Source: a virus (lineage: Duplodnaviria > Heunggongvirae > Uroviricota > Caudoviricetes). Taken from it: 19,561 nt of DNA. The DNA lies in the IMG/VR virus record IMGVR_UViG_2585427752_000010, one strand, 5' to 3'. Numbering within the stretch: position 1 is the first letter of the stretch; every line of letters begins with the position of its first letter. Positions 1-17,633 of the stretch are shown piece after piece. A model generated the notes under the pieces. The model worked only from the letters and a program-made list of their open reading frames with translations, was not told the DNA's origin and did no database searches. The position numbers and the translations under genes were made by a program.

Positions 1-1260
1 ATGCCAAAACTCACAGATATGCAGATCCGCGCATGGATAAAGGCGGGAGACAGATTTGATGGCAAGGCAGACGGCAACGGCCTTTATATTTGCTACCCCA
101 AAAACTACACAGCCCCGTTCTGGCGATTCCGCTATAAGCTCGCAGGAAAGCAGCGGGCTATGGTTATAGGCTCTTACTCCGAACTGTCACTATCAAAAGC
201 CAGAGAAACAGCAAAAGAGCTGTCAGCCAGAGTTGCTCTTGGCTATGACGTAGCAGCAGAGAAACAGGAACGAAAAGCTGAAGCACTGGCAAAAATGGAG
301 GCTGAGAAAAACGCCATGCGTGTTTCAGATCTGGCCTCCGAATACTTCGAGCGCCAGATACTTCCGAGATGGAAACATCCCGATATCCTTCGCCGGAGAA
401 TTGATAAGGATATTAACCCCTGCATTGGGCATATGAAGGTAGAGGACGTTAAGCCACGCCACATTGACGACATGTTGAAAGGTATCGTTGACCGAGGAGC
501 ACCAACGATAGCAACAGATGTATTACGCTGGACACGCCGTATCTTTGACTACGGGATAAAACGCCACGCTCTGGAGATAAACCCTTGTTCAGCGTTTGAA
601 GTATCTGATGCTGGTGGTAAAGAGGTTTCCCGCGACCGTTGGCTAACTCGCGATGAGCTTATCAGGCTATTCGAGGCTATGCGCACCGCAAAAGGATTCA
701 GCCGCCAGAACGAACTGACATTTAAGCTATTGCTGGCACTATGCGTTCGTAAGATGGAGTTATGCGCCGCACGATGGGAAGAGTTTGATTTAGATGGTGC
801 GGTATGGCATTTGCCGGAAGAACGCAGCAAAAACGGAGACCCTATTGATATACCTCTACCTTCTCCAGCCGTTGAATGGTTGAGAGAGCTACACACCTTT
901 TCATGTAATAGCGCATGGGTGCTTCCAGCCAGGAAGATGCAAAACAGAATGATCCCACATATTCAGGAAAGCACTTTGCCCGTAGCACTGGCTAAGGTTC
1001 GCGCCGAAATGCCGGATGTGCCTAATTTCACGATTCACGACTTCCGACGCACCGCACGTACTCATTTAGCAGCGTTGGGTGTTGATCCTGTCGTGGCGGA
1101 ACGATGCCTCAATCATCGCATTAAGGGCGTAGAGGGGATTTATAACCGCCATCAGTATTTTGATGAGCGTAAAGCAGCACTGGCACAGTGGGCTGATCTG
1201 CTGGTGGCACTGGAAAGCGGAAAAGACTACAACGTAACGCCTCTCAGAAGGGCGAACTAA
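1..1260 (+). CDS. int: P4-family tyrosine integrase (site-specific recombinase)
   Basis: 419-aa ORF with N-terminal arm-binding-like region and C-terminal catalytic region containing HDFRRTARTHL (H-x-x-R) and a downstream Tyr (GIYNRHQY); overall layout typical of tRNA/tmRNA-targeting P4-like integrases. Gene begins at window position 1, so the att site and any target tRNA lie upstream, outside the window. Confidence 0.9.
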   Translation: MPKLTDMQIRAWIKAGDRFDGKADGNGLYICYPKNYTAPFWRFRYKLAGKQRAMVIGSYSELSLSKARETAKELSARVALGYDVAAEKQERKAEALAKMEAEKNAMRVSDLASEYFERQILPRWKHPDILRRRIDKDINPCIGHMKVEDVKPRHIDDMLKGIVDRGAPTIATDVLRWTRRIFDYGIKRHALEINPCSAFEVSDAGGKEVSRDRWLTRDELIRLFEAMRTAKGFSRQNELTFKLLLALCVRKMELCAARWEEFDLDGAVWHLPEERSKNGDPIDIPLPSPAVEWLRELHTFSCNSAWVLPARKMQNRMIPHIQESTLPVALAKVRAEMPDVPNFTIHDFRRTARTHLAALGVDPVVAERCLNHRIKGVEGIYNRHQYFDERKAALAQWADLLVALESGKDYNVTPLRRAN

Positions 1261-1355
1261 CTGAATAGATTGAGCCTAGCTCGACGGGGCGAAAAGCGGG
1301 AAGCCTTACCGCCTGGCTCAATCACAAAATAAGGCGCAGCGTAAAAGGTGACGCA

Positions 1356-2321
1356 ATGAACGACTCTCATGAAACAACGGTGGTGCATAGAAATTTATGG
1401 CAGGAATCAGGTATTCCACCTTTGGACTACTGCACGATAGAGCGAGCATCAAAATTATTAAATTGTGAAATTGATGATATATGGCATTGGAAAGATAGAC
1501 TACATATAGACTTTTATGTCTATGCTGACTTTCTTGATTTCATTGAATCTGATGCCACCATCCACTTCAAAAAAGATGCTAATTTTATAACTGATTTATT
1601 ACTTATGTACCCAGAAGAAGTAAGGTTTACATTTCCTTTTCTTATTACCAGCGCAAGCAACGAAGTTTATATCCCAGCATCTGAAAGCGGTGCTTATGAG
1701 CTATTTTATGCACATAAACCACTGACAGTTGAAGACAGCGACAATAAAAATGTTTTTGAACAAATTGGCAAAAACTCTTTTATCGTAAGAAAATCAATCG
1801 CATGTGGATTGTTGCGTGTATGCGGTAGAACAACACGACATTATCATTCACAAGAATGTGGAGAACCATATGTGCGACTTGAAGCAACATTTGATTGTGA
1901 TCTATATAAATTCAAAATGCAAAGTTCCCAAATTCACCTGAGTAGCCTGTCAGATAAAAACATTTATATAACAAAGGCTGATTTAGAATACCTTCATGAC
2001 GCAAAGGTTAATGGAAGTTTTGACGCAGCTAAGAGCAAAAAACGATACGAAATGGCGGTAGAACAGGAACTAATACCTGAAATAAAAAATAGCAACCATA
2101 ATGCCGAGAGACATGCTGAAAACAGGGAAAAACTTTTCAAATCTGCAATATATCTTTTGTCAAAGTATCCTGATGAATGCCGTGGCAAAAAGAAAGAAAT
2201 AAGCCCTGAGAAGTGGCGGGATTGCATAGTGGCTCATAAAGACGAAATTCCACCGTTAGCAATCACAAATGAAGATGTGATTTTGAGACACTTACGTGCT
2301 GCCGCCAACGGTAAGGGGTAG
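1356..2321 (+). CDS. hypothetical protein, AT-rich orphan gene between int and alpA
   Basis: 321-aa ORF, ATG at 1356 preceded by AAAAGGTGA RBS; markedly AT-richer than its neighbours; no motif recognisable by eye; followed by a terminator-like hairpin. Confidence 0.75.
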   Translation: MNDSHETTVVHRNLWQESGIPPLDYCTIERASKLLNCEIDDIWHWKDRLHIDFYVYADFLDFIESDATIHFKKDANFITDLLLMYPEEVRFTFPFLITSASNEVYIPASESGAYELFYAHKPLTVEDSDNKNVFEQIGKNSFIVRKSIACGLLRVCGRTTRHYHSQECGEPYVRLEATFDCDLYKFKMQSSQIHLSSLSDKNIYITKADLEYLHDAKVNGSFDAAKSKKRYEMAVEQELIPEIKNSNHNAERHAENREKLFKSAIYLLSKYPDECRGKKKEISPEKWRDCIVAHKDEIPPLAITNEDVILRHLRAAANGKG

Positions 2322-2337
2322 AGTAGCTAACTATTCA

Positions 2338-2366
2338 GGCACAGTATCATTACTGCGCCTTTTTAT
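2338..2366 (+). terminator. putative intrinsic terminator after the 321-aa gene
   Basis: GGCACAG / CTGCGCC imperfect stem (6 of 7 pairs), 8-nt loop, followed by TTTTTATT. Confidence 0.4.
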
Positions 2367-2386
2367 TGTTCATATATGTACAGATA

Positions 2387-2435
2387 CTTCCTCCCGTAAC
2401 GAAGCAACAACTATCGCTAAGAGGTTACGGGAAGC
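2387..2435 (+). promoter_or_regulatory. inverted repeat overlapping the alpA ribosome-binding site
   Basis: CTTCCTCCCGTAAC (2387-2400) and GTTACGGGAAG (2425-2435) are near-perfect inverted complements separated by ~24 nt; the right arm ends immediately before the alpA ATG. Confidence 0.3.
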
Positions 2436-2639
2436 ATGAACACCGACACTATTCCTACAAAAGGCTATATCAGACGCTTCCGCCTGGCTGAATTGCTGGG
2501 CGTTAGTGTATCCACCATCGACCGTAAAGTAAGAAACGGTTCACTACCACGTCCGGTAAAGCTGGGAGAAAAAATAACTGCGTTTGATGCGGTTGAGATT
2601 CACAACTGGCTGGCAGAACGCCGCGGGAAGGTGGCCTGA
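2436..2639 (+). CDS. alpA: AlpA-family helix-turn-helix regulator / excisionase-like protein
   Basis: 67 aa; HTH segment LAELLGVSVSTIDRKVRNGSLPRPVKLG...W matches the AlpA/prophage regulatory protein pattern; stop overlaps the next start (TGATG). Confidence 0.8.
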   Translation: MNTDTIPTKGYIRRFRLAELLGVSVSTIDRKVRNGSLPRPVKLGEKITAFDAVEIHNWLAERRGKVA

Positions 2640-3070
2640 TGGAAAAGAAAAACCGCCCATTACAGGCGGCTAATTCAGATATTCGCGTATCTGATGTTAC
2701 GCCCCTGACAAAATCCCTTCAAGCACCAAAGCGCACACCGAAAAAGCATCGTGCCAGAGTCTATATGCTGCGTACTGGTATAGAGGGATGGACAGAAAAT
2801 GACATTCTTCGCTACTGCCGTCTGTCTTCTGGTCGTAACTATGCAACAGAGTTAGAACGCCAGCTTGGAATCACTCTGGAGCGTATCGACGAAAAGAATC
2901 CTGATGGTATCGGAACACACCTTCGCTACCGTTTCTCCTGCCGTGGTGATGTTCTGAAAGTGATCACTCATATTAACCATCTTGCGAACATAAATGATCA
3001 CAACGGACTTTCTCAGCAGGAAATTGCCGACATTCTGAAACTCTACCCGGACGCGTTTAACGCCGCCTAA
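2639..3070 (+). CDS. hypothetical protein
   Basis: 143-aa ORF translationally coupled to alpA; basic N-terminus; no recognisable motif. Confidence 0.7.
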   Translation: MEKKNRPLQAANSDIRVSDVTPLTKSLQAPKRTPKKHRARVYMLRTGIEGWTENDILRYCRLSSGRNYATELERQLGITLERIDEKNPDGIGTHLRYRFSCRGDVLKVITHINHLANINDHNGLSQQEIADILKLYPDAFNAA

Positions 3071-3082
3071 CGGAGACTGAAA

Positions 3083-3916
3083 ATGAACATCGAAAAAAGC
3101 AGATTAATTTCTGAGGCTGCCCCTCATCTGAACGCCTCTCTGAGCACAATTAACGGTAATGAATTTGCCGCAATTGTCCCGGTTATTCCTGGTCATATCG
3201 GTGGGCGTGAAACCAATATTGTTAGCGCAAAAGCGTTACACAAAGCGTTGGGCGTGGGAAAAGACTTCTCTACATGGATCACTGATCGCATCTCTGAATA
3301 TGACTTCACCATTGGGCACGATTACTCAGTCCATAAAACAATTTCCCCAAATTTGGGGAAAAGCCCGAATGGCGCGGCTTACAGCAAGATAAAGCACTCT
3401 GGCAGACCCGGCAAAGACTATCTGTTAAGTGTCGGAATGGCGAAAGAACTGGCAATGATCGAACGCAATGATCAGGGTCGCGCTATCCGCCGTTATTTCA
3501 TCCAGTGCGAGGAAGAATTACAGCGTAGCGTGCCTGAAATCGCCGCCCGCTATCGTCGCCAGCTAAAAGCCCGTCTCAGTGCCGCAAACAACTTTAAGCC
3601 AATGTGCGATGCGCTGAATATGGCCCGTGCCGAGATGGGTAAAACGACGCAGCAACACCACTACACAAACGAGAGCAATATGATTTCTCGTATCGTTCTT
3701 GGTGGGCTAACTGCTAAGCAGTGGGCGCGGATAAATGGCTATTCTGGCGAACCTCGCGACCATATGAACGCAGAACAGCTTGAGCACCTCTCATATCTCG
3801 AAAGCACCAATATCACGTTAATTGATATGGGCATGGAATATGAGCAGCGCAAAGGAGACCTCCCCCGCCTGTCGCAACGCTGGCTCGCCAAGCGTCTGGA
3901 GGTGGTCAATGTCTAA
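3083..3916 (+). CDS. phage antirepressor-like protein (Ant/KilAC-type, tentative)
   Basis: 277 aa; GGAG RBS 7 nt upstream; segment AKALHKALGVGKDFSTWITDRI resembles antirepressor N-terminal domains; assignment is from recall, not a search. Confidence 0.6.
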   Translation: MNIEKSRLISEAAPHLNASLSTINGNEFAAIVPVIPGHIGGRETNIVSAKALHKALGVGKDFSTWITDRISEYDFTIGHDYSVHKTISPNLGKSPNGAAYSKIKHSGRPGKDYLLSVGMAKELAMIERNDQGRAIRRYFIQCEEELQRSVPEIAARYRRQLKARLSAANNFKPMCDALNMARAEMGKTTQQHHYTNESNMISRIVLGGLTAKQWARINGYSGEPRDHMNAEQLEHLSYLESTNITLIDMGMEYEQRKGDLPRLSQRWLAKRLEVVNV

Positions 3917-4091
3917 GCCAACAGGAACACCACAACCACAAAAACGCTACAAAGATGCCCACGGAGCACTCGTTACTGTCGAAAGCGTGTCTCACAACCG
4001 AGTGACGTTTTATCGCGACGGGTATCAATCGCCATGCGTACAACCGCTGGCGCGTTTCATGAAGGAGTTCGCGGAGGTTAACAAATGCTAA
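3909..4091 (+). CDS. small hypothetical protein (60 aa)
   Basis: ATG at 3909 overlaps the stop of the upstream gene; sequence MSKPTGTPQPQKRYKDAHGALVTVESVSHNRVTFYRDGYQSPCVQP... looks protein-like. The ORF track's 3822 start lies inside the upstream gene and was not used. Confidence 0.5.
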   Translation: MSKPTGTPQPQKRYKDAHGALVTVESVSHNRVTFYRDGYQSPCVQPLARFMKEFAEVNKC

Positions 4092-4522
4092 CCGTCCAGA
4101 AGAAGACATTTTCACTGGCTGGTATGTCGCCAAAATCCAGCAATATGACGGCAAAGTCAGGCATTAATACAGCAGATACAAGCAAAGTTTATCATTTGCT
4201 GGTGGTCGGAACGGATGCCTTAACCATATCAGAAATCTCGGGCGATGATATTAGCATTGAGAAGGTCAGCGGCTGCGCCAGAGAATTTCTGGTCGTAGAT
4301 GACCTGTTCTGCTCGCGTAGTGACTCCACAAAAACATTCGTCCACGCGCGTGACGTTAACGAAATGAGCGCGATGTACTGTGCTTCTGGTTCTTCCAATA
4401 GTGAGTTTTCGGAGTCCATAAAAAAGAGCTTGCCGTTATGCGGCAACACGGTTTATGGTTATAAGGCACCTCATAAAACGGGTGCCGGGTTTCGCAGCCC
4501 GGAAATGTACGAGGCGACACAT

Positions 4523-4544
4523 GACGCGCCGAGCGTCTTTTTTT
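4523..4544 (+). terminator. putative intrinsic terminator inside the ambiguous 4085-4746 region
   Basis: GACGC-gccga-GCGTC hairpin followed by TTTTTTT. Confidence 0.35.
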
Positions 4545-4746
4545 GTGCCGTTAGCCAGACTCACACTTTTTTCAGTGATGTGGTTATAATCCGCGTCGCT
4601 TGCAAAATTATGGTGGGCTGGACAGGGCAGCCGAAAGGCTGGCCGGTTTCCTTGTACGCCGGTACTGCGAACTCTGTTCAGTCCACCACCAGCGAGTTTC
4701 GCAGCTCCGGTGGTGGGAAGAATTCCCAGTACAAGGAGGCTGCCAC

Positions 4747-4941
4747 ATGCTGGCTACTACCCCTACCCAAAAACCGCAATTTATCTGGATTATCGCCGCA
4801 GTTCGCCGCGATTGCCCGACAATTACCGCCAAAATTCATCATATTGCTGCCGAGTCTGAACGCGATGCTCGCCGTTCTCTGGTGCGCGATCACGTCTGCT
4901 TTTTTGCTGGTCGTATCCGCATGGAGGTGGCACATGATTAA
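4747..4941 (+). CDS. small hypothetical protein (64 aa)
   Basis: ATG at 4747 preceded by AGGAGG with 7-nt spacing; product MLATTPTQKPQFIWIIAAVRRD... is charged and protein-like; stop overlaps the next start. Confidence 0.5.
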   Translation: MLATTPTQKPQFIWIIAAVRRDCPTITAKIHHIAAESERDARRSLVRDHVCFFAGRIRMEVAHD

Positions 4942-5152
4942 AACCTACGATGTGCATATGGATCCCCTCGAACGCACAAGCCAGATCATCACACTGACAG
5001 AAGTGATTAATGACATTCTGGTGAGCAACTCTCCCTCACGAGACGAAAAACTGAAGGCGTTACTCGCGATATTGGATCTCGCCGTTCGTGACGTTCATTT
5101 CCTGCTGGAAGGTGGACAAATGCCATGCAAAACGGGGGCAACCAATGAATAA
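4934..5152 (+). CDS. small hypothetical protein (72 aa)
   Basis: ATG at 4934 preceded by GGAGG; product MIKTYDVHMDPLERTSQIITLTEV... is protein-like; it is the in-frame 3' portion of the long 4085..5152 ORF. Confidence 0.55.
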   Translation: MIKTYDVHMDPLERTSQIITLTEVINDILVSNSPSRDEKLKALLAILDLAVRDVHFLLEGGQMPCKTGATNE

Positions 5153-5339
5153 CTCAATTAATGCCCCTCGCCTTACGTCCGCACTTCAATTAATCGAGCA
5201 AGCAGCGGCTGTCCTGGTTGCTGTCAGTCTTTCGGCTGAAGAAATGGACGCTGCTGATGTCGTGGATGCGATTAAAGCGTGCTCATCTTTGGTTAACGAT
5301 GCCCGTGCAGAGCTGGTAATTCTTGGTGGTGAAAAATGA
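5145..5339 (+). CDS. small hypothetical protein (64 aa)
   Basis: ATG at 5145 in frame within the 5088 ORF; overlaps the upstream stop; downstream stop overlaps the next start (ATGA). Confidence 0.5.
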   Translation: MNNSINAPRLTSALQLIEQAAAVLVAVSLSAEEMDAADVVDAIKACSSLVNDARAELVILGGEK

Positions 5340-5599
5340 ATATCAACTTAATTTATCGTCATCCGTGTGAGCTGGAAATTGAATCATTGCTGGGGCGCGA
5401 AGAGCCATATCCAGACACATTCACTCCCGCAGATTGCGCGACTGAACGGCTTACCAGAGCGCGCACAGGTCTGGTTCATGTGATGAATGAGATTGTTCCC
5501 TCGGTGGGAGGGGAACAGGCGACAGTAATCAATAGCTGGCTACAAAAAGTTACCTCCCTGATAGATATCGGTTTAATCGATGTGGAGAGTGCGAAATGA
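5336..5599 (+). CDS. small hypothetical protein (87 aa)
   Basis: ORF with ATGA start/stop overlap on both sides, indicating translational coupling in an operon. Confidence 0.65.
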   Translation: MNINLIYRHPCELEIESLLGREEPYPDTFTPADCATERLTRARTGLVHVMNEIVPSVGGEQATVINSWLQKVTSLIDIGLIDVESAK

Positions 5600-5817
5600 C
5601 CAACATCCAGCTCATTGAAGCGCAATGTCGCATCGAACAGGTTCAGACTGTTTTAGGGTTCTGGCTTGAAGGGGCCAGCCCCAGCAACAGAGACAAGTTA
5701 ATGATTGGCGCGGTTATGTCACTGCTCAATGGCGTACCAGAAGCTATTCAGGAAGCGGACGAATTGTTGGGCAAATATGAGTTACAGAATCATTCAGGCG
5801 AGGCGAAACATGAATAA
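5596..5817 (+). CDS. small hypothetical protein (73 aa)
   Basis: ORF coupled to its neighbours by overlapping stop/start codons. Confidence 0.65.
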   Translation: MTNIQLIEAQCRIEQVQTVLGFWLEGASPSNRDKLMIGAVMSLLNGVPEAIQEADELLGKYELQNHSGEAKHE

Positions 5818-6412
5818 TTTCTTAACTTTCCATGCAGAAGCAACGCCTGACGGCGTAAACATCATGTACCGCAGCAACGATGGCATGACAGAACGCGTTG
5901 AGGCCATCTCATATATTGATGCCGTAAATCGTCTGGATGCCGGGGATTATGACGATAAACCAGATGAAGGTATGTCAATACATCTCGCTATTGCCGATGG
6001 CGGCAACCAGGGATATTTCGATTACACATCACAGCATAACGTCATTATGTGGAGATGGCTGATCGCAACAGTATTCATGCTGGAAATGAGAGAGGAAAAC
6101 GGCACTGTCAGCATCATTGATGATACTGGCAATCCTTCCGAAGTGGCTGTTTATTCCAACGGCATCGTCGCCATGCCGCTGTATCCAGTAGCAGAGCGCC
6201 TCGCTATGGCAAACAACATTGAGGGCGCGATGATAGAACGTTTTGGCATCGAGTCTGGCACAGAACGCGCCATCATTTTCTACAGAGCCATGATGGATGT
6301 GGAACAAGGAGCACTGACTCCATTTGGGCGTGAAACGCTTGCTGAACTTCACAACAGCTTTATAGCTGAACTGAATGAAAACGGCATGCCAGCGGAACCA
6401 GTGACGCACTGA
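5810..6412 (+). CDS. hypothetical protein (200 aa)
   Basis: ATG at 5810 overlaps the upstream stop; acidic product MNNFLTFHAEATPDGVNIMY...; the ORF track's earlier 5705 start would overlap the upstream gene extensively. Confidence 0.7.
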   Translation: MNNFLTFHAEATPDGVNIMYRSNDGMTERVEAISYIDAVNRLDAGDYDDKPDEGMSIHLAIADGGNQGYFDYTSQHNVIMWRWLIATVFMLEMREENGTVSIIDDTGNPSEVAVYSNGIVAMPLYPVAERLAMANNIEGAMIERFGIESGTERAIIFYRAMMDVEQGALTPFGRETLAELHNSFIAELNENGMPAEPVTH

Positions 6413-6422
6413 GGATGGAGCC

Positions 6423-6764
6423 ATGATTACTAAAAATTTCCGACTGAATGCGCTGGCAAATAAGTATGCGTCGGCACTGTATAACCACATTACCTCCACC
6501 AGCGGCGGGGACTATTTCATGGTTGATGCGGACGGCGAGGCCGTCCGTGTGGAAATCGTCAATGGAGTAAAAGGCGTTCGCAGCCTGATCGATAGCTACA
6601 CACTGGCAGCCATGAAAGTGTTCTACCCGCAGTGGGAAACCGTGGGGATCGAGCTTCTTGAACGTTGCGTCACTAAGGACGGATTGACTGACGTCGGGCG
6701 TGAGATATGGCAAAGCATGGTTAATGACATGGGCGCAACTGTAGCGGGAGGTTCTCATGCGTGA
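6423..6764 (+). CDS. hypothetical protein (113 aa)
   Basis: ATG at 6423 with GAGGA RBS; stop overlaps the next start. Confidence 0.7.
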   Translation: MITKNFRLNALANKYASALYNHITSTSGGDYFMVDADGEAVRVEIVNGVKGVRSLIDSYTLAAMKVFYPQWETVGIELLERCVTKDGLTDVGREIWQSMVNDMGATVAGGSHA

Positions 6765-7128
6765 AAATGCAGAAATGGCGCTTAGCTCCGCAATCGGAGA
6801 GCAGGTGGCAAAGATTGCTGGTGCTGTGTGGATTCATAACCTTCATTCTACTGGTGAAGAGAAAATGGCAATTCAGACGCCAGAGGGACGCACCATTACT
6901 ACATCTCTGAAGCCGTCAGATGTTTGTGATCTGATTTGCGCATTCATGTACCCAGCAATGAGGACTGTCCACGGCGATAAGTGGAAACTTGCGACAACCG
7001 CTGAATTTGATATGTGGCTAAACAATGATGGCATGCTGACTGATTACGGAATAACCAAGTGGCAGATGCTGGTTAGCCATATCGCAAACGCTATAGACCA
7101 CGTGGGGTACGGTGATGCGAAACATTGA
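6757..7128 (+). CDS. hypothetical protein (123 aa)
   Basis: ATG at 6757 with GGAGG RBS; 3' end overlaps the primase start. Confidence 0.7.
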   Translation: MRENAEMALSSAIGEQVAKIAGAVWIHNLHSTGEEKMAIQTPEGRTITTSLKPSDVCDLICAFMYPAMRTVHGDKWKLATTAEFDMWLNNDGMLTDYGITKWQMLVSHIANAIDHVGYGDAKH

Positions 7129-9466
7129 TCTTATCCGTCAGGTTATCAGTGCGTCTGAAAACAACTGGCCTCATGTGCTGGGCTGCCTGAACATAAATGT
7201 CCCTGACTCTCCGCGCCGTCATGCTCCCTGCCCTGCATGTGGGGGCAAAGATCGATTCCGGTTCGATGACAACGGGCGCGGTAGCTTCATCTGTAATCAG
7301 TGCGGCGCTGGTGATGGGCTGGATTTAATTAAACGCGTAAATAACTGCGACACAACAGAGGCGGCGCTTCTTGCCGCTGATGTTCTGGGTATTGATTACC
7401 GGACAACGGAAACACCAGAAGCCACCAGCCAGAAACGGGAACAACTGGAAACCGAGCGCCAGCGACGCGAACAGGAGCGCCTGAAAAGGGCAGAGAAGGA
7501 CGAACAACAAAGACGGGATACGTTTTCCCGTCAGTTTGATGACATGCGCAGAAAGGCTGTAAACGGCAAATCTGATTATCTGGTTGCGAAAGGGGTAGGT
7601 GATTTTACATTCCCCGTGTTGCCCGATGGATCTCTGTTGCTGGCGCTGGTGGATAAATCCGGCGCAGTCACAGCAGCACAGACTATTACCTCACATGGTG
7701 AAAAAAGACTCCTGACAGGTTCGGCAAAGCGGGGGGCATATCACGCCATAAACGCACAGAAACGACCTCACAGCATCATAATTGCTGAGGGGGTGGCTAC
7801 CGCCCTGTCGTGCCATTTAATTCGCCCTGACGCAATGACAGTGGCAGCAATCGACGCTGGCAACCTGTTGCCAGTAGCGGAAGTCATGCGCAGAACATAT
7901 CCGCAGGCACAAATAATCATTGCTGCAGATAACGATCACCAGCAAGGAGACTCAGAAAGTGGAGGGATCAACACGGGGAAAGATGCCGCAGAGAGGGCCG
8001 CTATTTCCGTAGCTGGCAGGGTGTCTCTGCCACCGACTGACTATAAAGCCGACTGGAACGACTATCACCAACAACACGGGCTGGCGGCAGCCACAGCAGC
8101 ATTTAAAGATTCGATGTACCAGCCACGGGGGAAAGGGGCGCAGGTGAAAAATCACAAACAGTCAGTCGGGGCGCTGAATGAGATCAGTTCTGGCGAGGTG
8201 TTAAGCGATGATGAAATTGCTGTCCTCGAAGAAATCAACCGGACGTTTACGCATGTCACCATCGGCGGGAAACACAAGGTGGGGTCGCTAAAGCCTTCTC
8301 AAACCGGCGGTGTATCGCACGTTTTCGAGGATTTATCACAATTTCAGCATTATTTTCATCATAAACCGAGAGTCGCCAGAAAGCTGGCGGGATCGGCGTG
8401 GCTGTCATGGAGTGGGAAGAACTACAAGCCAGGAGGCGTAGGATTTTATCCAGTACCAGACAAATGCCCTGACGATGTTTTTAATCTGTATGAGGGGCTG
8501 GCACTGGAACCAATTGAAGGAGATTGCACGGTATACCTTAATCACCTGTTGCAGGTTGTCTGTGCCGGTAATGAAGAGGCATACCAATATCTTATCCAGT
8601 GGATGGCGCACATTATCCAAAAGCCTGATGAAAAACCGTCCGTGGCAATCGTGATGAAATCTGTCCCGGGCACAGGGAAAGGCACAACGGTTAAACCGCT
8701 GCTGCAAATACTGGGGCAGTACGCCGCCCACATTAACGGGGCGGGACATATTTCAGGGCGCTTCAATTCAATACTTGCTAACAAGCTACTGGTATTTGCT
8801 GACGAAGTGACGATCCACAAGCCGTCTGAAGCTGACAGACTTAAAGCGATTATTAGCGAACCGACGTTTAACCTTGAGCGCAAGGGAATTGATGCTGAAC
8901 CAATGCCGAATTTTGCCCGGTTGATATTTGCCAGTAACAGCACACAGGTATTACAGGCAGGGATAAGAGAGCGTCGCTATCTCGTGCTTGAGCCATCTCC
9001 TGAAAAAGCACAGAGCCGGGAGTATTTTGATCGGCTGTACAGTTGGCTTAATGATGGCGGTGCCGCAAAGTTGCTTTGGCATCTTAAAGGGGTGGATCTC
9101 TCAGGTTTTGACCCTCAACGAGCGCCACAGACCGATGCCTTACGTGAAGAAATCTTGCTGGGGCTGTCTGGCGTTGAATTGTTTCTTTATGGCGAGCTAA
9201 TCAATGAACCTCCGTTTAATGGCGAAGTCCGTTTGTTTGCAAAGGATATGGTTAGTCGGTTTGTAGCGTGGTCGCTTGAGCGTGGGGAAAAGCTTAAAGA
9301 ACCAGCTGCCAGATCACTACTGGGTAAATCACTTGCACAAATGGGGCTGGTGAAGCATGGAAGACCAGACCGAGGGAATGGCGTGTTCTACGAACTACCA
9401 GAGGTCGGAGTTCTACAGGCTGCGTTTGCCCGTCTGATCGGTATGGGGGGTTATGATGTTTTTTAA
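7112..9466 (+). CDS. P4-alpha-like bifunctional primase-helicase
   Basis: 784 aa; N-terminal zinc ribbon CPACGG...CNQCG; TOPRIM-like motifs IIIAEGVATA and IIAADNDH; C-terminal P-loop NTPase region with Walker A-like PGTGKGTT and Walker B-like LLVFADEV. Start may be GTG 7112 or ATG 7115. Confidence 0.9.
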   Translation: MMRNIDLIRQVISASENNWPHVLGCLNINVPDSPRRHAPCPACGGKDRFRFDDNGRGSFICNQCGAGDGLDLIKRVNNCDTTEAALLAADVLGIDYRTTETPEATSQKREQLETERQRREQERLKRAEKDEQQRRDTFSRQFDDMRRKAVNGKSDYLVAKGVGDFTFPVLPDGSLLLALVDKSGAVTAAQTITSHGEKRLLTGSAKRGAYHAINAQKRPHSIIIAEGVATALSCHLIRPDAMTVAAIDAGNLLPVAEVMRRTYPQAQIIIAADNDHQQGDSESGGINTGKDAAERAAISVAGRVSLPPTDYKADWNDYHQQHGLAAATAAFKDSMYQPRGKGAQVKNHKQSVGALNEISSGEVLSDDEIAVLEEINRTFTHVTIGGKHKVGSLKPSQTGGVSHVFEDLSQFQHYFHHKPRVARKLAGSAWLSWSGKNYKPGGVGFYPVPDKCPDDVFNLYEGLALEPIEGDCTVYLNHLLQVVCAGNEEAYQYLIQWMAHIIQKPDEKPSVAIVMKSVPGTGKGTTVKPLLQILGQYAAHINGAGHISGRFNSILANKLLVFADEVTIHKPSEADRLKAIISEPTFNLERKGIDAEPMPNFARLIFASNSTQVLQAGIRERRYLVLEPSPEKAQSREYFDRLYSWLNDGGAAKLLWHLKGVDLSGFDPQRAPQTDALREEILLGLSGVELFLYGELINEPPFNGEVRLFAKDMVSRFVAWSLERGEKLKEPAARSLLGKSLAQMGLVKHGRPDRGNGVFYELPEVGVLQAAFARLIGMGGYDVF

Positions 9467-9495
9467 TATAGTCTTTTTACAAGAAGATCGTTTTT

Positions 9496-9600
9496 ACCTG
9501 TACCACCTATACCACTTTGCTAATTCAGCATTAAAAACAATGTGTTATAGTGGTACAGGTCAATATCTTACCTATACCAGACCTGTACCACCTATACCAT
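9496..9600. repeat. iteron cluster 1 (putative origin-type repeats) just downstream of the primase
   Basis: ACCTGTACCACCTATACCA at 9496-9514 and 9581-9599, inverted partial copy GTGGTACAGGT at 9550-9560, and partial copy CCTATACCAG at 9571-9580. Confidence 0.6.
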
Positions 9601-9642
9601 TAACAAACGCATTTCTTCTGGCTGGCTGAGAGGGAACAACCA

Positions 9643-9873
9643 ATGATGAGCACACCATTTTACAAAGTGCGCCAGTTAGCTTCTTCCTCTGGCTGGCAGC
9701 TACGGTTTGAGGGGCGTTCAGACTGGCTACCCATTGCGGCATGGGCGAATGTTGAAATGTGTATTGACGGCGATACCGTTGAAATCATTATTCCCTGCGT
9801 GGCAAGTCGGGACGGCTGTATAGAGCCAACAGATATGGCAGCAGAAATCAGAGAGGTAAAACATGAGCAATAA
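9643..9873 (+). CDS. hypothetical protein (76 aa)
   Basis: ATG at 9643 preceded by GAGAGGGAA; stop overlaps the next gene's start. Confidence 0.6.
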   Translation: MMSTPFYKVRQLASSSGWQLRFEGRSDWLPIAAWANVEMCIDGDTVEIIIPCVASRDGCIEPTDMAAEIREVKHEQ

Positions 9874-10600
9874 CTATTGCATACCGCAGGGAATGACCAG
9901 AACGGAGCGCGAAGAATTAAAAAGTTTCGCTACACAGTGCGGGAATGCTGGCGACATCCAAAGTCTGGAACGCACTTTAATTATGATTGCGCACTGGATG
10001 CGTCAGGGGCAAAGGGTTTCATTTACTGAATATGCCAGCCAGTGGACAGAGGCACAGCGCGAACGGAGCGACGGTAATCACTCAACACCCGAAATGGCGA
10101 AGCAATGGCCTTTCAGTGGTAAACGCTGTATCAGTCCCGGTGGTTCAGATTATTACCCTGCTGGTGTGGGAGATGAGCCATGTTGTGACGAGACTGAAAT
10201 CCGCCACGCAGTGACAGTAATTACCGCTGAATACCCACAATTTAACCTTGACGGACTGGCGCTCCACAACCGGAATGCGGACTGGGAAAACCCGCTTGAT
10301 AACCCGTCATTTATCGTATCGGCGAAAAGCTGCCTGAGATGGATCAGAGACAACGGGATGAGTAATGCCCAGATTGAGAGCTTCCCGCAGGATAACCCCA
10401 CATCTGACACGTTGAAGCATGAAGTGGAGCGATATAACCAGATAAACCACCAGCACAGTGATCACCCGCACTATATCCCCAACGGAGCATTTATTGCGGC
10501 GATGGTGGCAAGCGGCTACAAGGTTAAGCCAGCGGGAAGAATGAACGCATTTTTCAATATTTCAAAAAAGGGATTATGTGCTGCTATGGGTAAAAATTAA
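9863..10600 (+). CDS. hypothetical protein (245 aa)
   Basis: ATG at 9863 preceded by GAGAGG; Cys- and His-containing product with no motif recognisable by eye. Confidence 0.7.
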   Translation: MSNNYCIPQGMTRTEREELKSFATQCGNAGDIQSLERTLIMIAHWMRQGQRVSFTEYASQWTEAQRERSDGNHSTPEMAKQWPFSGKRCISPGGSDYYPAGVGDEPCCDETEIRHAVTVITAEYPQFNLDGLALHNRNADWENPLDNPSFIVSAKSCLRWIRDNGMSNAQIESFPQDNPTSDTLKHEVERYNQINHQHSDHPHYIPNGAFIAAMVASGYKVKPAGRMNAFFNISKKGLCAAMGKN

Positions 10601-10605
10601 ATAAA

Positions 10606-10709
10606 TGGTACAGGTCTGTACAGGTGGGGAGAGGTCATTTTTACCCACCTGTACCACCTGCAGGCCGCGTCACACAAGGGTTTGTGACATGGTGGTACAG
10701 GTGGTACAG
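10606..10709. repeat. iteron cluster 2 (same GGTACAGG/CCTGTACC family)
   Basis: TGGTACAGGTCTGTACAGGTGGG (10606-10628), inverted CCCACCTGTACCACCTG (10644-10660), TGGTGGTACAGGTGGTACAGC (10689-10709), plus a GTCACA-N8-TGTGAC inverted repeat (10669-10688). Confidence 0.6.
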
Positions 10710-11074
10710 CAAAAACAGCGATTTTCTTTATAAGGTATGTTTTGCTCATCTGGCAGACGGAGGTATTCGCTGCGGTTTGGCACATAGCCCAGAACAGCAA
10801 AGAGTTTTACGAGACTTTTGTAAAATCCAGTGTACAAGGGCGTGACGTTTTTGAAGGAGAGACCTACGAAATTTTCGTAGTTCAAAAAATAGCCTCTGAG
10901 ATGTTGTTATGCCTGTTCAGCAAACCATCCGCATAGCTGATCGCGAATCAAATTACCAATGGAGCCAGAAGCAAGGGCAGAACTGGAAAGCGCCTGCCGT
11001 GAAGAGTAATGCGACATCGTAAATATAGTTTTTAGAGTCCATAAAAAAACTGTCAAAACCTGACATACAGAACG

Positions 11075-11108
11075 ATGCCACCAGCTACTGAGCGGTGGCA
11101 TTTTTTTG
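11075..11108 (+). terminator. rho-independent terminator
   Basis: ATGCCACC / GGTGGCAT perfect 8-bp stem with 11-nt loop, followed by TTTTTTT. Confidence 0.65.
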
Positions 11109-11169
11109 TGCTATTTGTTTCATATTTTGCAATTACGATGATGAATATTGCGATTTGTGAAACTATAAT

Positions 11170-11189
11170 AACTGTTGTTTTATACAGTT
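11170..11189 (+). promoter_or_regulatory. LexA-box-like site (CTGT-N8-ACAG) between a TATAAT element and the operon's first RBS
   Basis: AACTGTTGTTTTATACAGTT: CTGT at 11172-11175, 8-nt AT-rich spacer, ACAG at 11184-11187; a consensus -10 TATAAT lies at 11164-11169 and the RBS AAGGGGG at 11192-11198. Confidence 0.4.
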
Positions 11190-11202
11190 CTAAGGGGGCG
11201 TT

Positions 11203-11364
11203 ATGGCTATTTCAGTAAAGCCGGTATTGATAAGTGAGAAGCAAATGGAAGCGATAAAGAAAATTCAGGAAGAGCAGCGTAAAAAATCAGGAATTGGAGT
11301 AGCGCCAACTCTGCATGAAATTGCTCGAGGGTTAATAGATAAGGCGCTGGCAGGCTGTATGTGA
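11203..11364 (+). CDS. small DNA-binding-like protein (possible ribbon-helix-helix), 53 aa
   Basis: Not in the ORF track (below its size cutoff). ATG at 11203 with strong RBS TAAGGGGGCG; product MAISVKPVLISEKQMEAIKKIQEEQRKKSGIGVAPTLHEIARGLIDKALAGCM has a strand-helix-helix-like pattern. Confidence 0.45.
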   Translation: MAISVKPVLISEKQMEAIKKIQEEQRKKSGIGVAPTLHEIARGLIDKALAGCM

Positions 11365-11380
11365 AAATGGATGGCATCGC

Positions 11381-11842
11381 ATGGAACTAAAATTTATTGA
11401 TAACCCTGTGCGATTACAGGCCTTTCTTAACGATCCTGGCAATACCGAAAATATTGTTGAGCCGGGGCACACGTACTACATCAAGCCTGATGCGGTATAT
11501 CTCGGCATCTACGAAGGATTGGTGCTGGCTGGCGTTCATGAAGTGCGTAACTTCTGGCATAGCATTGTTGAATGCCATGCGGTGTACGACCCCGGATTCC
11601 GTGGTGAATATGCACTGCAAGGGCATCGATTATTCTGCAAATGGCTTCTCGAAAACTCACCATTCCTTAACAGCATCACTATGGTTCCTGACACCACGAA
11701 ATACGGACGGGCAATTATCCGTTTGCTTGGCGCTACCCGTGTTGGTCACCTTGATGATGCTTATATCAGATGTGGTAAACCCGTCGGCGTAACGCTTTAT
11801 CAGTTAACTCGGCAACAATATAAGGAATTCAGCGAATGTTAA
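11381..11842 (+). CDS. hypothetical protein (153 aa), second gene of the operon
   Basis: ORF starting 17 nt after the small gene; stop overlaps the next start (ATGTTAA). Confidence 0.75.
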   Translation: MELKFIDNPVRLQAFLNDPGNTENIVEPGHTYYIKPDAVYLGIYEGLVLAGVHEVRNFWHSIVECHAVYDPGFRGEYALQGHRLFCKWLLENSPFLNSITMVPDTTKYGRAIIRLLGATRVGHLDDAYIRCGKPVGVTLYQLTRQQYKEFSEC

Positions 11843-12513
11843 TTACCCATATAGCTCATAAACATCTCAATCGTGCCGTATACGAAAAAGGCGGTGATGG
11901 TGGTGCCTCTAAAGCTCAGGCGAAGGCCCAGCAGCAGGCAATTGATTTGCAGCGCGAGCAGTGGAATACGGTGATGAATAATCTCAAGCCGTATGCAGAA
12001 GTCGGATTGCCTGCTTTACAACAACTACAAGGACTGATGACTCTGGAAGGGCAGAATAAAGCCGCGAATGATTTCTTTGGTTCTGGTTTATATAAAACAC
12101 AGGCAGATCAGGCCCGTTATCAGAACCTTGTCTCAGCAGAAGCTACCGGGGGGCTTGGCTCAACAGCTACCAGTAACCAGTTATCTTCCATTGCGCCCAT
12201 GCTTTATAACAATTGGCTTAGTGGGCAAATGCAAAATTATGGAAACCTGCTAAATGTCGGGATGAATGCGGCATCAGGACAGGCAACGGCAGGGCAAAAC
12301 TACGCCAATAATACCGGACAACTCTTGCAGGGGCTTGGCGCTATTCGTGCAGGTCAGGCGCAGCAGCCATCCAGTCTTGCGCGTGGTATTGGTGGGGCAG
12401 CATCAGGCGCTTTAGCGGGTGCGCAACTTGGTTCCGTTGTTCCTGGAATAGGTACTGCGGCAGGCGCTATTGGTGGTGGGCTTATTGGTCTTGTTGGGGG
12501 GCTTGGATTCTAA
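11836..12513 (+). CDS. Gly/Ala/Gln-rich protein with C-terminal glycine-zipper hydrophobic segment (225 aa)
   Basis: AAGGAA RBS; low-complexity Q/A/G/N-rich body; C-terminus GIGGAASGALAGAQLGSVVPGIGTAAGAIGGGLIGLVGGLGF has repeated GxxxG spacing typical of membrane-inserting glycine zippers. Confidence 0.75.
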   Translation: MLITHIAHKHLNRAVYEKGGDGGASKAQAKAQQQAIDLQREQWNTVMNNLKPYAEVGLPALQQLQGLMTLEGQNKAANDFFGSGLYKTQADQARYQNLVSAEATGGLGSTATSNQLSSIAPMLYNNWLSGQMQNYGNLLNVGMNAASGQATAGQNYANNTGQLLQGLGAIRAGQAQQPSSLARGIGGAASGALAGAQLGSVVPGIGTAAGAIGGGLIGLVGGLGF

Positions 12514-13826: not shown

Positions 13827-13828
13827 CA

Positions 13829-16549: not shown

Positions 16550-16699
16550 ACGCTCTAACTAACAAAACCATAATAGCCAAGGACGGCATACTGATATTGA
16601 GCCAACTATCAAAATTCCATATCACATTACGGGCCTGTGGCTTACATTCGCTTACAGTGATGATAATTTATAACCACGCAATTCTTAGGTGAGATTATC

Positions 16700-17398: not shown

Positions 17399-17405
17399 CT
17401 AATAA

Positions 17406-17427
17406 GCCCGGTACGCCGGGCATTTAT
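17406..17427 (+). terminator. weak terminator-like hairpin after the lipoprotein gene
   Basis: GCCCGG-tacg-CCGGGC perfect 6-bp stem followed by a T-poor tail (ATTTAT). Confidence 0.35.
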
Positions 17428-17562
17428 GCCCCTATTATTCATGAATCGCTTTTTCTAGAAGGTATGCGACAAACGTTAAGTGACATTGCCTACACATTCG
17501 GGGCGGGATTTCAAATCCGCTCCCAGTTGATGGGGTCGTTACAGTACGCGCATATCCGCTTT

Positions 17563-17633
17563 ATGTGAAACAGGAAGATTTTTCTGATATCACTGCCACA
17601 GCAAAACACCAATTTCGTGACCAGTACGCGCAC
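17563..17633. repeat. copy A of a ~70-bp repeat family (copies B at 17838-17867 and C at 19473-19543)
   Basis: A and C align over ~70 bp (ATGTGA.A..GGA.G.TTTTTC.GA.ATCACT ... CAATTTC..GA.CA.TACGCGC) with small indels; B is a shortened copy (CTGATAT-TTTGCGACAAGTACGCGCGCG); a fourth core CAGTACGCGC lies at 17542-17551. Confidence 0.6.

What the first reader, a model, noticed from the sequence alone, without database searches (positions are those of the whole stretch)
1356..2321. AT-rich orphan gene inserted between integrase and alpA
Its base composition is clearly lower in GC than the flanking int and alpA genes, suggesting separately acquired cargo in a slot where these islands commonly carry accessory functions. 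The protein shows no motif I can recognise. It may be a homolog of the uncharacterised gene occupying the same position in CP4-57-type elements.
Basis: partly seen in the sequence, partly recalled or inferred. Interest (0 to 1): 0.4.

Follow-up and report, generated by a model that had tools for sequence, protein, structure and literature searches.

The report
Swappable gene slot in phage satellite
The AT-rich gene between the integrase and alpA is a real, intact gene from a large uncharacterised protein family that sits at this same spot in many phage-satellite islands of enteric bacteria, and its middle section is repeatedly swapped by recombination, as expected for a part that recognises phages.

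Summary
ORF 1356-2321 (321 aa) has GC 0.371 and GC3 0.30, against 0.50 for int and alpA. It is the lowest-GC stretch of the window (z = -4.3).

- The gene is not an orphan. An exhaustive profile search found 614 clusters of relatives. In every locus with enough context (more than 25), the relative lies between int and alpA of a satellite that also carries a primase.
- It is not related to CP4-57 YfjH, which lies on the opposite strand (BLASTP E 0.43; hhalign probability 0.3%).
- No Pfam, NCBIfam, PHROG, PDB or convincing PADLOC match exists.

The protein has three parts: a conserved but acidic N-terminal domain with a MerR/Xis-like winged-helix fold, a hypervariable acidic middle, and a nearly invariant basic C-terminal helical domain.

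Alleles are exchanged by recombination in otherwise clonal islands (X dS 0.63 against int dS 0.007). One exchange lies inside the gene, at about nt 1500-2200.

The gene is preceded by the Rfam int-alpA RNA motif (1269-1335). That leader is conserved right up to the ATG, even in front of unrelated genes (DUF6387). A terminator-like hairpin follows the gene.

The island body is 96-98% identical to the experimentally studied satellite EcCIMP1, which lacks this gene.

Best guess, at low confidence: a phage-recognition specificity factor tied to the int/alpA module. A stand-alone anti-phage defence protein is a close rival.

The parts
1..1260 (+). Tyrosine integrase (419 aa), the upstream flank of the slot. 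In close relatives the island lies next to yicC.
   Evidence: Pfam Arm-DNA-bind_3, Phage_int_M and Phage_integrase. Chromosomal context is yicC-int-X-alpA in E. coli G3X16-2.
1269..1335 (+). int-alpA RNA motif (Rfam RF02996): a three-stem structure in the int-X spacer that forms the conserved leader of the slot gene. The P3 loop GCCUUA (1303-1308) is complementary to the tail UAAGGC (1330-1335).
   Evidence: cmscan gives 60.6 bits against a gathering score of 35.8. The same motif lies directly upstream of the slot gene in L005, L007, L008, L013, L016 and L018 and in 29 IMG/VR loci. The leader is conserved up to the ATG in front of unrelated ORFs. The loop and tail change together in different lineages.
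1345..1350 (+). Shine-Dalgarno AAGGTG, 5 nt before the ATG of X
   Evidence: Read directly from the sequence. It is conserved together with the leader.
1356..2321 (+). Gene X: 321-aa cytoplasmic acidic protein (pI 5.9, no hydrophobic segment). It belongs to an uncharacterised family specific to the int-alpA slot.
   Evidence: ORF; homologues; no Pfam or NCBIfam match, and PHROG only at E>=0.11; purifying selection; physico-chemical properties.
1407..1529 (+). N-terminal conserved domain (aa 18-58) with a MerR/Xis-like winged-helix fold. Family consensus: LPPLEYCxLxRAAxLLxCxxxDLLHWAxxGxIxLC. It is acidic (aa 1-60: pI 4.8).
1530..1955 (+). Hypervariable, acidic, beta-rich middle region (aa 59-200), the swapped specificity module
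   Evidence: The commonest residue per column covers only 0.09-0.27 of the 40 sequences. Net charge is negative in 38 of 40 members, mean -8.8. AF2 predicts strands over aa 117-206. Against ETEC1721, identity falls to 0.32-0.76 between about nt 1500 and 2200, while the flanks are 94-100% identical per 50-nt window.
1956..2015 (+). Conserved strand-helix element (aa 201-220, NIYITKADLEYL; family motif DLxIT...L)
   Evidence: L213 is invariant in A1. Conservation rises to 0.39 here. AF2 predicts strand 203-206 and helix 207-219.
2091..2318 (+). Nearly invariant basic C-terminal helical domain (aa 246-321; motif HxNAERHAxNRExLxKSAIYxLSKYPDECRG..KEISPEKW...)
2337..2365 (+). Terminator-like hairpin (2337-2360) plus U5 tract, 16 nt after the X stop codon
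   Evidence: Folding energy -13.1 kcal/mol, z = -3.4. An equivalent hairpin with different stem sequences is present in L002 and L005. The simple terminator scan did not flag it.
2392..2432 (+). alpA leader hairpin (CCCGUAAC / GUUACGGG) ending 3 nt before the alpA ATG. Backbone identity with the strain D8 island resumes at exactly 2393.
   Evidence: Fold -15.4 kcal/mol, z = -2.75. Alignment A4. Breakpoints.
2436..2639 (+). alpA (67 aa), the downstream flank of the slot
   Evidence: Pfam Phage_AlpA at E 2.2e-8.

Best explanation
Gene X occupies a one-gene slot inside a portable integration and regulation module: int, then a structured leader RNA, then the slot gene, then a terminator, then alpA. 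The island is an EcCIMP1-like, P4-related phage satellite. I think X is most likely a phage-recognition (specificity) factor made while the satellite is integrated.

Shown here:
- X is an intact, selected, cytoplasmic three-part protein.
- Its N- and C-terminal parts are conserved across a large family found only in this slot.
- Its acidic middle part is hypervariable and is exchanged by recombination, even within the gene, between otherwise near-identical islands.
- The leader, Shine-Dalgarno and ATG are backbone sequence shared with unrelated slot genes.
- A terminator-like hairpin separates X from alpA.

Inferred:
- X is transcribed with int rather than with the helper-induced alpA operon.
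- The variable acidic middle binds a protein of an induced helper phage or of an incoming competitor, probably a basic, nucleic-acid-binding one.
- The conserved ends couple that recognition to a common output linked to the int/alpA switch, either satellite induction and excision or blocking of the phage.

Which output applies is not resolved.
For: - Position fidelity. int-X-alpA-...-primase holds in every locus with context, from 99% down to about 20% identity. The family was not found in 50,697 phage genomes. In plasmid records it appeared in about 20-kb circular Klebsiella records; the one inspected is satellite-like.
- One gene, many alleles. In 13 sampled E. coli places where int and alpA/orf143 align but the slot does not, the span is 1972-2068 bp against 2101 bp here. 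The slot was never empty there and never held a multi-gene system.
- Localised allele replacement. Against ETEC1721, int has dS 0.007 and alpA no differences, while X has dS 0.63 and dN 0.285. The breakpoints lie inside X at about 1500 and 2200. Against strain D8 the AlpA protein is identical, but a 281-aa homologue only about 16-29% identical (hhalign probability 99.9%) replaces 1361-2392.
- Module architecture and conservation profile. The C-terminal domain is under strong purifying selection (dN/dS 0.17).
- Expression platform. The RF02996 leader is conserved up to the ATG. No sigma-70-like promoter was found between 1100 and 1356. A terminator-like hairpin follows X.
- Positional analogues. 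In Vibrio PICMI satellites the genes between int and alpA (iolg/icg) fall into 13 unrelated families, and iolg deletion abolishes helper-induced excision (PMC10803314).
Against: - EcCIMP1, a satellite shown experimentally to be induced, excised and transduced (PMC11773190), is 96-98% identical to this island over 2629-8136 and 10801-17876. Yet it has a different int/alpA pair and only a 427-nt int-alpA gap, with no X remnant and no RF02996. X is therefore not needed for the shared life-cycle functions.
- Unrelated families (DUF6387 and others) can fill the same slot behind the same leader. That looks like cargo.
- X alleles do not co-vary with Int or AlpA, so no partner in the module is indicated.
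- The winged-helix-like domain is acidic, so DNA binding through it is doubtful.
- No structural or sequence relative of known function exists.
- Nothing here shows binding to any phage protein.
- Co-transcription with int rests only on the absence of a predicted promoter.
Confidence: 0.35

Rival explanations
1. X is a stand-alone anti-phage defence or interference gene (a 'moron'). It would be constitutively expressed accessory cargo whose variable domain senses a phage component, with the conserved C-terminal domain as the effector or adaptor. In this reading it has no role in the satellite's own cycle.
For: - All slot occupants have low GC.
- The gene has its own terminator-like hairpin.
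- Alleles are swapped into clonal backbones.
- Unrelated families occupy the same slot.
- X is absent from the functional relative EcCIMP1.
- Regions next to the integrase in P4-like satellites are known defence hotspots (PMC13586616; PMC9122126).
- There is a weak PADLOC hit to the candidate PDC-S31 (E 0.002, aa 183-266).
Against: - No PADLOC model is matched by the other 39 family members, nor by the other slot occupants tested, including YfjH.
- The family was never seen outside the int-alpA slot, whereas defence genes typically move between contexts (PMC13586616).
- In the E. coli islands sampled the slot always held one gene of about 0.9-1.0 kb, and no slot occupant tested matched a known defence system.
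- The protein has no enzymatic or membrane effector motif.
Confidence: 0.25
2. X is an anti-defence or establishment protein. It would be an acidic, possibly DNA-mimicking protein co-expressed with int when the satellite enters a new cell, neutralising host restriction or other DNA-binding immunity proteins.
For: - The middle region is strongly acidic across the family (mean net charge -8.8, minimum -24), and so is the N-terminal domain.
- The gene is co-oriented with int and appears to depend on int-side transcription.
- Hypervariability is typical of counter-defence genes (general knowledge; see also PMC13586616).
Against: - There is no similarity to Ocr, ArdA or other known anti-restriction folds.
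- The predicted middle domain is beta-rich and of only moderate confidence.
- The conserved basic C-terminal domain is not explained by this reading.
Confidence: 0.12
3. X is a recombination cofactor, like the IOLG protein of PICMI satellites: an architectural or directionality protein working with Int and AlpA in excision or integration, with no sensing role.
For: - X lies immediately after int, with gaps of only 3-18 nt in some relatives (L002, L015, L017, L019).
- The N-terminal fold resembles excisionases such as TorI, Pukovnik Xis and the AlpA-family 8c3t.
- The PICMI iolg gene is required for excision (PMC10803314).
Against: - Islands with 99-100% identical Int and identical AlpA carry X alleles 29-60% identical, so X does not track Int or the att site.
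- The winged-helix-like domain is acidic.
- EcCIMP1 excises without any such gene.
- In the PICMI work the iolg deletion was complemented only with int and iolg together, so a polar effect on int is not excluded.
Confidence: 0.12
4. X is a classical DNA-binding transcription regulator (MerR-like or Stl-like) that represses or activates alpA from an operator in the X-alpA spacer.
For: - The N-terminal domain has a MerR-like fold.
- X lies directly upstream of alpA.
- A long helix at aa 224-270 could serve for dimerisation.
- An in-register but very weak hhalign match to AlpA exists (E 0.007, probability 5.5%).
Against: - The helix-turn-helix region is acidic, with invariant Asp41 in the would-be recognition helix.
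- No Pfam HTH model is matched.
- The wHTH is conserved while the sequence just upstream of alpA differs between alleles (D8 against the window). Conversely, L002 has a different N-terminus but a similar spacer.
- Immunity in this element type is already provided by a P4-type CI/C4 RNA at 4606-4693.
Confidence: 0.08

Closest known systems
iolg/icg genes of Vibrio PICMI satellites (Barcia-Cruz et al. 2024, PMC10803314)
   Same: These are single genes of unknown function lying between int and alpA of a small phage satellite, co-oriented with int. They fall into many unrelated families (13 in 35 subfamilies). iolg is proposed to be constitutively expressed with int, and its deletion abolishes helper-induced excision.
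   Different: iolg usually overlaps int by 1-13 nt. Here there is a 95-nt spacer holding a structured RNA. The hosts are Vibrionaceae and the helpers are virulent phages. No modular conserved-variable-conserved architecture was reported.
EcCIMP1, an E. coli PICI mobilised by phage Kapi1 (Pick et al. 2025, PMC11773190)
   Same: The island body is 96-98% identical over window 2629-8136 and 10801-17876. That covers orf143, AntA, DUF4222, Ash, the C4/isrK RNAs, the small ORFs, the first half of the primase gene, and the DUF2824, gp7, ejection-protein and SLT genes, in the same order, plus PerC at lower identity.
   Different: EcCIMP1 has a different integrase (29% aa identity) and AlpA (36%) and integrates at tRNA-Thr. 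Its int-alpA gap is only 427 nt, with a roughly 67-aa ORF (EcCIMP1_002), no X homologue and no RF02996 motif.
Rfam RF02996 int-alpA RNA motif (from memory, reported in Weinberg et al. 2017, NAR 45:10811; function unknown)
   Same: Window 1269-1335 matches the full model at 60.6 bits.
   Different: Rfam lists it as an sRNA gene. Here it behaves as the 5' leader of the slot gene: it ends about 20 nt before the ATG, and leader, Shine-Dalgarno and ATG are conserved in front of unrelated ORFs. The held text of the 2017 paper does not mention the motif and no supplement could be read.
Defence hotspot next to the integrase in P4-like satellites (Rousset et al. 2022, PMC9122126; PMC13586616)
   Same: It is a variable, recombination-prone region next to the integrase of an enterobacterial satellite with P4-type Ash, primase and CI RNA functions.
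   Different: The P4 hotspot lies between int and psu-delta-sid and holds varied known defence systems. This slot lies between int and alpA and held one uncharacterised gene of about 0.9-1.0 kb in the islands sampled. No Psu, Sid or Delta was found in this island.
CP4-57 YfjH (E. coli K-12 b2623)
   Same: It lies between intA and alpA, has a similar length (318 aa) and is also low in GC (0.368 against 0.47 for its flanks).
   Different: It is on the opposite strand and shows no detectable sequence or profile similarity. No int-alpA motif reached the gathering score in the K-12 locus.
SaPI Stl master repressors (established knowledge)
   Same: These are hypervariable satellite proteins whose variable part recognises different helper-phage proteins. 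They offer a model for how a specificity factor could work.
   Different: Stl proteins are basic XRE-type helix-turn-helix repressors, transcribed divergently from the operon they control. X is co-directional with alpA, separated from it by a terminator-like hairpin, and has an acidic winged-helix-like domain.

Membership tests
CP4-57 YfjH family | Sequence homology to E. coli K-12 YfjH (b2623) | tested here: not met
   BLASTP best E 0.43 over 15 residues. hhalign of the family profile A1 against YfjH gives probability 0.3%.
CP4-57 YfjH family | Same position and orientation between intA and alpA | tested here: not met
   The position is shared, but yfjH is on the minus strand, opposite to intA and alpA. 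X is co-directional with int and alpA.
AlpA/Xis/MerR winged-helix DNA-binding proteins (Pfam Phage_AlpA, HTH_17, MerR) | Significant match to the family HMMs | tested here: not met
   Pfam gives no HTH hit for X at E<=1, and none in 40 members at E<=0.01. hhalign against the window's AlpA gives E 0.007 but probability only 5.5%.
AlpA/Xis/MerR winged-helix DNA-binding proteins (Pfam Phage_AlpA, HTH_17, MerR) | Winged-helix fold | tested here: inconclusive
AlpA/Xis/MerR winged-helix DNA-binding proteins (Pfam Phage_AlpA, HTH_17, MerR) | Basic DNA-contacting surface or recognition helix | tested here: not met
   In X, aa 1-60 have pI 4.8 and net charge -6. The domain is net negative in 30 of 40 family members, whereas AlpA is +6.
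Known anti-phage defence proteins (PADLOC-DB v2) | Match to a defence-protein HMM | tested here: inconclusive
   X alone has one partial hit, to the candidate PDC-S31 (E 0.002, 15.6 bits, aa 183-266). Among the other 39 family members there are only two isolated hits at E about 0.007 to unrelated models, one member each. Defence databases released after 2023 could not be searched.
PICMI iolg/icg class (positional class) | A single gene contiguous with int, between int and alpA, in a primase-bearing satellite | tested here: met
   int 1-1260, X 1356-2321, alpA 2436-2639, primase 7112-9466.
PICMI iolg/icg class (positional class) | Required for helper-induced excision | not testable with these tools
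   This needs a deletion and complementation experiment.
PICMI iolg/icg class (positional class) | Sequence relatedness to any of the 13 iolg/icg families | not tested
Rfam RF02996 int-alpA RNA (for the leader at 1269-1335) | Covariance-model score above the gathering threshold | tested here: met
   60.6 bits against 35.8, full-length model match 1-71.
P4-like satellite (core set of Moura de Sousa and Rocha) | Integrase, AlpA, Ash/epsilon and alpha primase | tested here: met
   Pfam Phage_integrase, Phage_AlpA and Phage_ASH, plus Zn_Ribbon_Prim, Toprim_3 and DUF5906. The P4-type C4/CI RNA and isrK are also present.
P4-like satellite (core set of Moura de Sousa and Rocha) | Psu-Delta-Sid capsid-hijacking operon | tested here: not met
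   No such Pfam hit in any ORF scanned. Instead the island carries P22-type gp7, an injectosome translocase, an SLT protein and DUF2824.

The most novel reading that the evidence does not exclude
The int-alpA RNA motif and the gene behind it form a conserved expression platform with an exchangeable cassette. In this reading a structured, pseudoknotted leader controls translation of modular proteins (the X family, DUF6387 and others) that are the so-far unidentified helper-phage sensors of Gram-negative PICI/P4-type satellites. The swappable acidic middle domain of X would decide which phage induces the satellite through alpA.
Probability: 0.15. Interest if true: 0.8.

Novelty: new variant of a known kind. 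Interest (0 to 1): 0.5.

Why it matters
How Gram-negative phage satellites sense their helper phage and switch on alpA is an open question. The PICMI authors raise it directly (PMC10803314). This locus offers a concrete candidate: a large, unnamed protein family found only between int and alpA, with a recombination-swapped recognition-like domain.

The work also gives a genomic role to an Rfam motif of unknown function. The int-alpA RNA appears to be the leader of whichever gene sits in the slot.

If X turns out instead to be a defence or counter-defence protein, it would add a new single-gene family, and a new hotspot with sharply defined borders, to the satellite immune repertoire.

In either case natural allele pairs already exist for direct specificity-swap experiments. 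The islands of this window and of ETEC1721 have 100% identical Int and AlpA proteins and near-identical flanking DNA, but different X middle domains.

Tried and rejected
- Family libraries. Pfam, NCBIfam, PHROGs and PADLOC scans of X gave nothing usable. Pfam and PADLOC scans of 40 family members gave nothing either. The single PDC-S31 hit is not shared by relatives, so I treat it as unconfirmed.
- PDB sequence searches, with the single protein and with the profile, gave only noise.
- YfjH homology is rejected.
- A remnant of X in the 99-3165 slot and in the EcCIMP1 gap: none found. An RF02996 remnant in EcCIMP1: none found.
- Zinc site. I considered a Cys/His site (C275, C290, H294, H312) in the C-terminal domain and dropped it, because C290 is not conserved in the wider family.
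- Fusions that might reveal the C-terminal domain's role. Proteins that matched only through the C-terminus have the same architecture with a shorter middle and no Pfam domains.
- Genome-contig scan. It returned only 4 loci, which limits the taxonomic survey.
- Literature. Searches for the accessions, for DUF6387 and for int-alpA gave no functional data.
Full report
**1. Observation**

The ORF is at exactly 1356-2321 (+), 321 aa. It has an AAGGTG Shine-Dalgarno 5 nt upstream of the ATG. Its GC is 0.371 and GC3 0.301. int has 0.498/0.483 and alpA 0.505/0.500. All other 966-nt windows of the sequence average 0.483 (sd 0.026, minimum 0.417), so X lies at z = -4.3 and holds the global minimum. The flanks are a tyrosine integrase and an AlpA-family protein.

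**2. The gene is real and is not an orphan**

- The exact protein belongs to a 374-member cluster in which every named entry is 'hypothetical'.
- The variable 5' 745 nt occur in 77 of 5426 complete E. coli genomes.
- dN/dS is 0.22 against UMNK88 and 0.45 against ETEC1721. The C-terminal part alone gives 0.17.
- A word-indexed search found 48 relatives in Enterobacterales.
- An exhaustive profile search found 614 representative clusters at E<=1e-3 and 184 at E<=1e-10, mostly proteins of about 300 aa.
- No Pfam, NCBIfam or PDB-sequence match exists, and PHROG scores only reach E 0.11.
- PADLOC gives one partial hit to the candidate PDC-S31 (E 0.002). None of the 39 other members scanned shares it.

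**3. It is not YfjH**

In K-12, yfjH lies between intA and alpA but on the opposite strand. BLASTP gives E 0.43 and hhalign a probability of 0.3%. YfjH is a positional analogue only. It is also low in GC.

**4. Context**

The island is a phage satellite.
- In E. coli G3X16-2 it sits between yicC and dinD.
- It carries AntA, DUF4222, Ash, a P4-type C4/CI antisense RNA (4606-4693), isrK (4466-4543) and a primase.
- It also carries P22-type DUF2824, gp7, an injectosome translocase and an SLT protein, plus PerC.
- No Psu, Sid or Delta was found.
- Window 2629-8136 and 10801-17876 are 96-98% identical to EcCIMP1, a PICI shown experimentally to be induced and transduced by phage Kapi1 (PMC11773190).
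- EcCIMP1 has a different Int (29% identity) and AlpA (36%). Its int-alpA gap is 427 nt, with no X remnant and no int-alpA RNA.

**5. Synteny**

Every relative with enough flanking DNA lies in the order int, X, alpA, then further on a primase.
- E. coli and Salmonella alleles.
- Intestinirhabdus, Pectobacterium, Symbiopectobacterium and Pantoea genomes.
- A 21.8-kb circular Klebsiella 'plasmid' that looks like an excised satellite.
- Distant representatives P0064, P0090, P0152 and P0124.
- 12 IMG/VR contigs.

No relative was found in 50,697 phage genomes.

**6. Architecture of the protein**

Alignments show a conserved N-terminal block, a hypervariable middle, a short conserved DLxIT...L element, and a nearly invariant C-terminal block of about 75 aa. 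R257 is invariant, and E258 and C275 nearly so, across 40 distant members.

| Part | Residues | Prediction | Charge |
|---|---|---|---|
| N-terminal domain | 18-58 | Strand-helix-helix winged-helix-like unit, about aa 25-57 | pI 4.8 over aa 1-60; net negative in 30 of 40 members |
| Middle | 59-200 | Beta-rich, strands over aa 117-206, moderate confidence | Mean net charge -8.8; negative in 38 of 40 members |
| C-terminal domain | 246-321 | Long helix 224-270 leading into a compact helical domain, pLDDT 95-98 | pI 9.0 |

**7. Allele exchange**

- Against ETEC1721: the Int, AlpA and orf143 proteins are 98.6-100% identical (int dS 0.007), but X is 60% identical (dS 0.63). Divergence is confined to about nt 1500-2200, inside the gene.
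- Against strain D8: the AlpA protein is identical and Int 99% identical. Positions 1361-2392 are replaced by a 281-aa homologue that is about 16-29% identical (hhalign probability 99.9%).
- Against another E. coli allele (L002): similarity stops at 1248 and resumes at 2121.

The high dS shows import by recombination, not rapid evolution in place.

**8. The slot**

- In 13 sampled E. coli places where the flanks align but the slot does not, the span is 1972-2068 bp against 2101 bp here. Exactly one annotated gene lies between int and alpA.
- Other occupants are DUF6387 proteins of 268 and 301 aa, a 240-aa protein, and a 216-aa ORF that overlaps int. None matches PADLOC.
- All slot occupants examined have lower GC than their flanks, in 10 of 10 loci.

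**9. Leader and terminator**

- Rfam's int-alpA RNA (RF02996) matches 1269-1335 at 60.6 bits. It recurs directly upstream of the slot gene in 6 other loci and in 29 IMG/VR loci found with a motif pattern.
- The motif, the linker, the Shine-Dalgarno and the ATG are conserved. Divergence starts immediately after the ATG, whether an X-family gene or a DUF6387 gene follows.
- The P3 loop and a tail segment 7-11 nt after P1 are complementary, with different sequences in different lineages: GCCUUA/UAAGGC, CCCUA/UAGGG, ACCUAC/GUAGGU, UCCCUU/AAGGGA and CUUCA/UGAAG. This suggests a pseudoknot. Each instance is only modestly significant on its own, and I did not test it formally.
- After the stop codon there is a hairpin plus U5 at 2337-2365 (z = -3.4). 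Relatives have a hairpin at the same place with different stem sequences.
- No sigma-70-like promoter was predicted between 1100 and 1356. I infer, weakly, that X is transcribed with int and insulated from alpA.
- alpA has its own leader hairpin at 2392-2432.

**10. Interpretation**

Two lines of evidence pull in different directions.
- Strict context fidelity down to 20% identity, together with the pattern of one gene of constant size, never absent in the islands sampled, points to a function tied to the int/alpA module.
- Low GC, allele swapping, unrelated alternative occupants, and absence from the functional relative EcCIMP1 point to accessory cargo.

A phage-recognition specificity factor reconciles the two, so I rank it first at 0.35. 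It is followed by stand-alone defence (0.25), anti-defence or establishment (0.12), recombination cofactor (0.12) and classical DNA-binding regulator (0.08).

The only experimental data on positional analogues come from PICMI. There, iolg is needed for helper-induced excision, but it was complemented only together with int (PMC10803314).

**11. Novelty**

Variable genes next to the integrase in satellites are a known phenomenon. What appears undescribed in the searched literature is:
- this protein family;
- its intragenic module exchange;
- its pairing with the int-alpA RNA as a shared leader.

**Limits**
- Context sampling is modest, at about 40 loci, and part of it was selected through the RNA motif itself.
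- No expression or binding data exist.
- Defence databases newer than 2023 could not be searched.

Noticed in passing
window 1269-1335 (and 1303-1308 / 1330-1335): The Rfam int-alpA RNA (RF02996) lies in the int-X spacer and behaves as the 5' leader of the slot gene. The leader, Shine-Dalgarno and ATG are conserved in front of unrelated ORFs. The P3 loop and the downstream tail change together across lineages, which suggests a pseudoknot. In several loci the same loop is also complementary to the real Shine-Dalgarno.
   Followed up: partly
window 4466-4543 and 4606-4693: An isrK-like RNA and a C4/P4-CI-type antisense RNA lie inside the mechanical 355-aa ORF 4085-5152. Only part of that ORF (the Phage_ASH domain, aa 124-232) is likely to be coding. 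This is a P4-type RNA immunity region.
   Followed up: partly
window 11381-16549: A P22-type DNA-ejection module (DUF2824, gp7, gp20-like translocase, 906-aa SLT protein) takes the place of the P4 psu-delta-sid operon. It is about 98% identical to EcCIMP1, whose helper is the podovirus Kapi1.
   Followed up: partly
window 8137-10800: This segment does not align with EcCIMP1. It covers the C-terminal half of the primase (DUF5906 here, DUF927 in EcCIMP1) and ORFs 9643-10600. It is a second replaced module within otherwise 96-98% identical islands.
   Followed up: no
window 2392-2432: An inverted repeat CCCGUAAC/GUUACGGG ends 3 nt before the alpA ATG and may occlude its ribosome-binding site. L016 has a different inverted repeat (UUACCUGC/GCAGGUAA) at the same place, which hints at an RNA-level element.
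   Followed up: no
L012 (CP031371.2, 21,845-bp circular Klebsiella 'plasmid'); also NZ_CP033626.1, LR134256.1, CP031370.2: Non-mobilizable 'plasmids' of about 20 kb. The one inspected, L012, carries an X homologue, alpA, an antirepressor, DUF4222 and the C4/isrK RNAs. It looks like an excised, circularised satellite that was assembled as a plasmid.
   Followed up: partly
L022 1319-2125, L024 1320-2225 (IMG/VR contigs): DUF6387 proteins (Pfam PF19924, unknown function) occupy the same slot behind the same leader. A DUF6387 gene also lies next to alpA in the Klebsiella island ICEKp258.2 (PMC10763509), so this family too seems tied to alpA-containing integration modules.
   Followed up: partly
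L014 2851-3972 (E. coli 99-3165): In an otherwise similar island the slot holds an unrelated 216-aa ORF that overlaps int by 4 nt (like the PICMI iolg), followed by about 470 nt of AT-rich sequence with no ORF. The overall slot length is still preserved.
   Followed up: partly
window 16700-17398 and 10501-11500: These are the next lowest-GC stretches. One is a 232-aa ORF with GC 0.423 and no Pfam match, conserved in EcCIMP1. The other is a stretch between ORF 9863-10600 and DUF2824 (GC 0.426) that is largely free of long ORFs.
   Followed up: no
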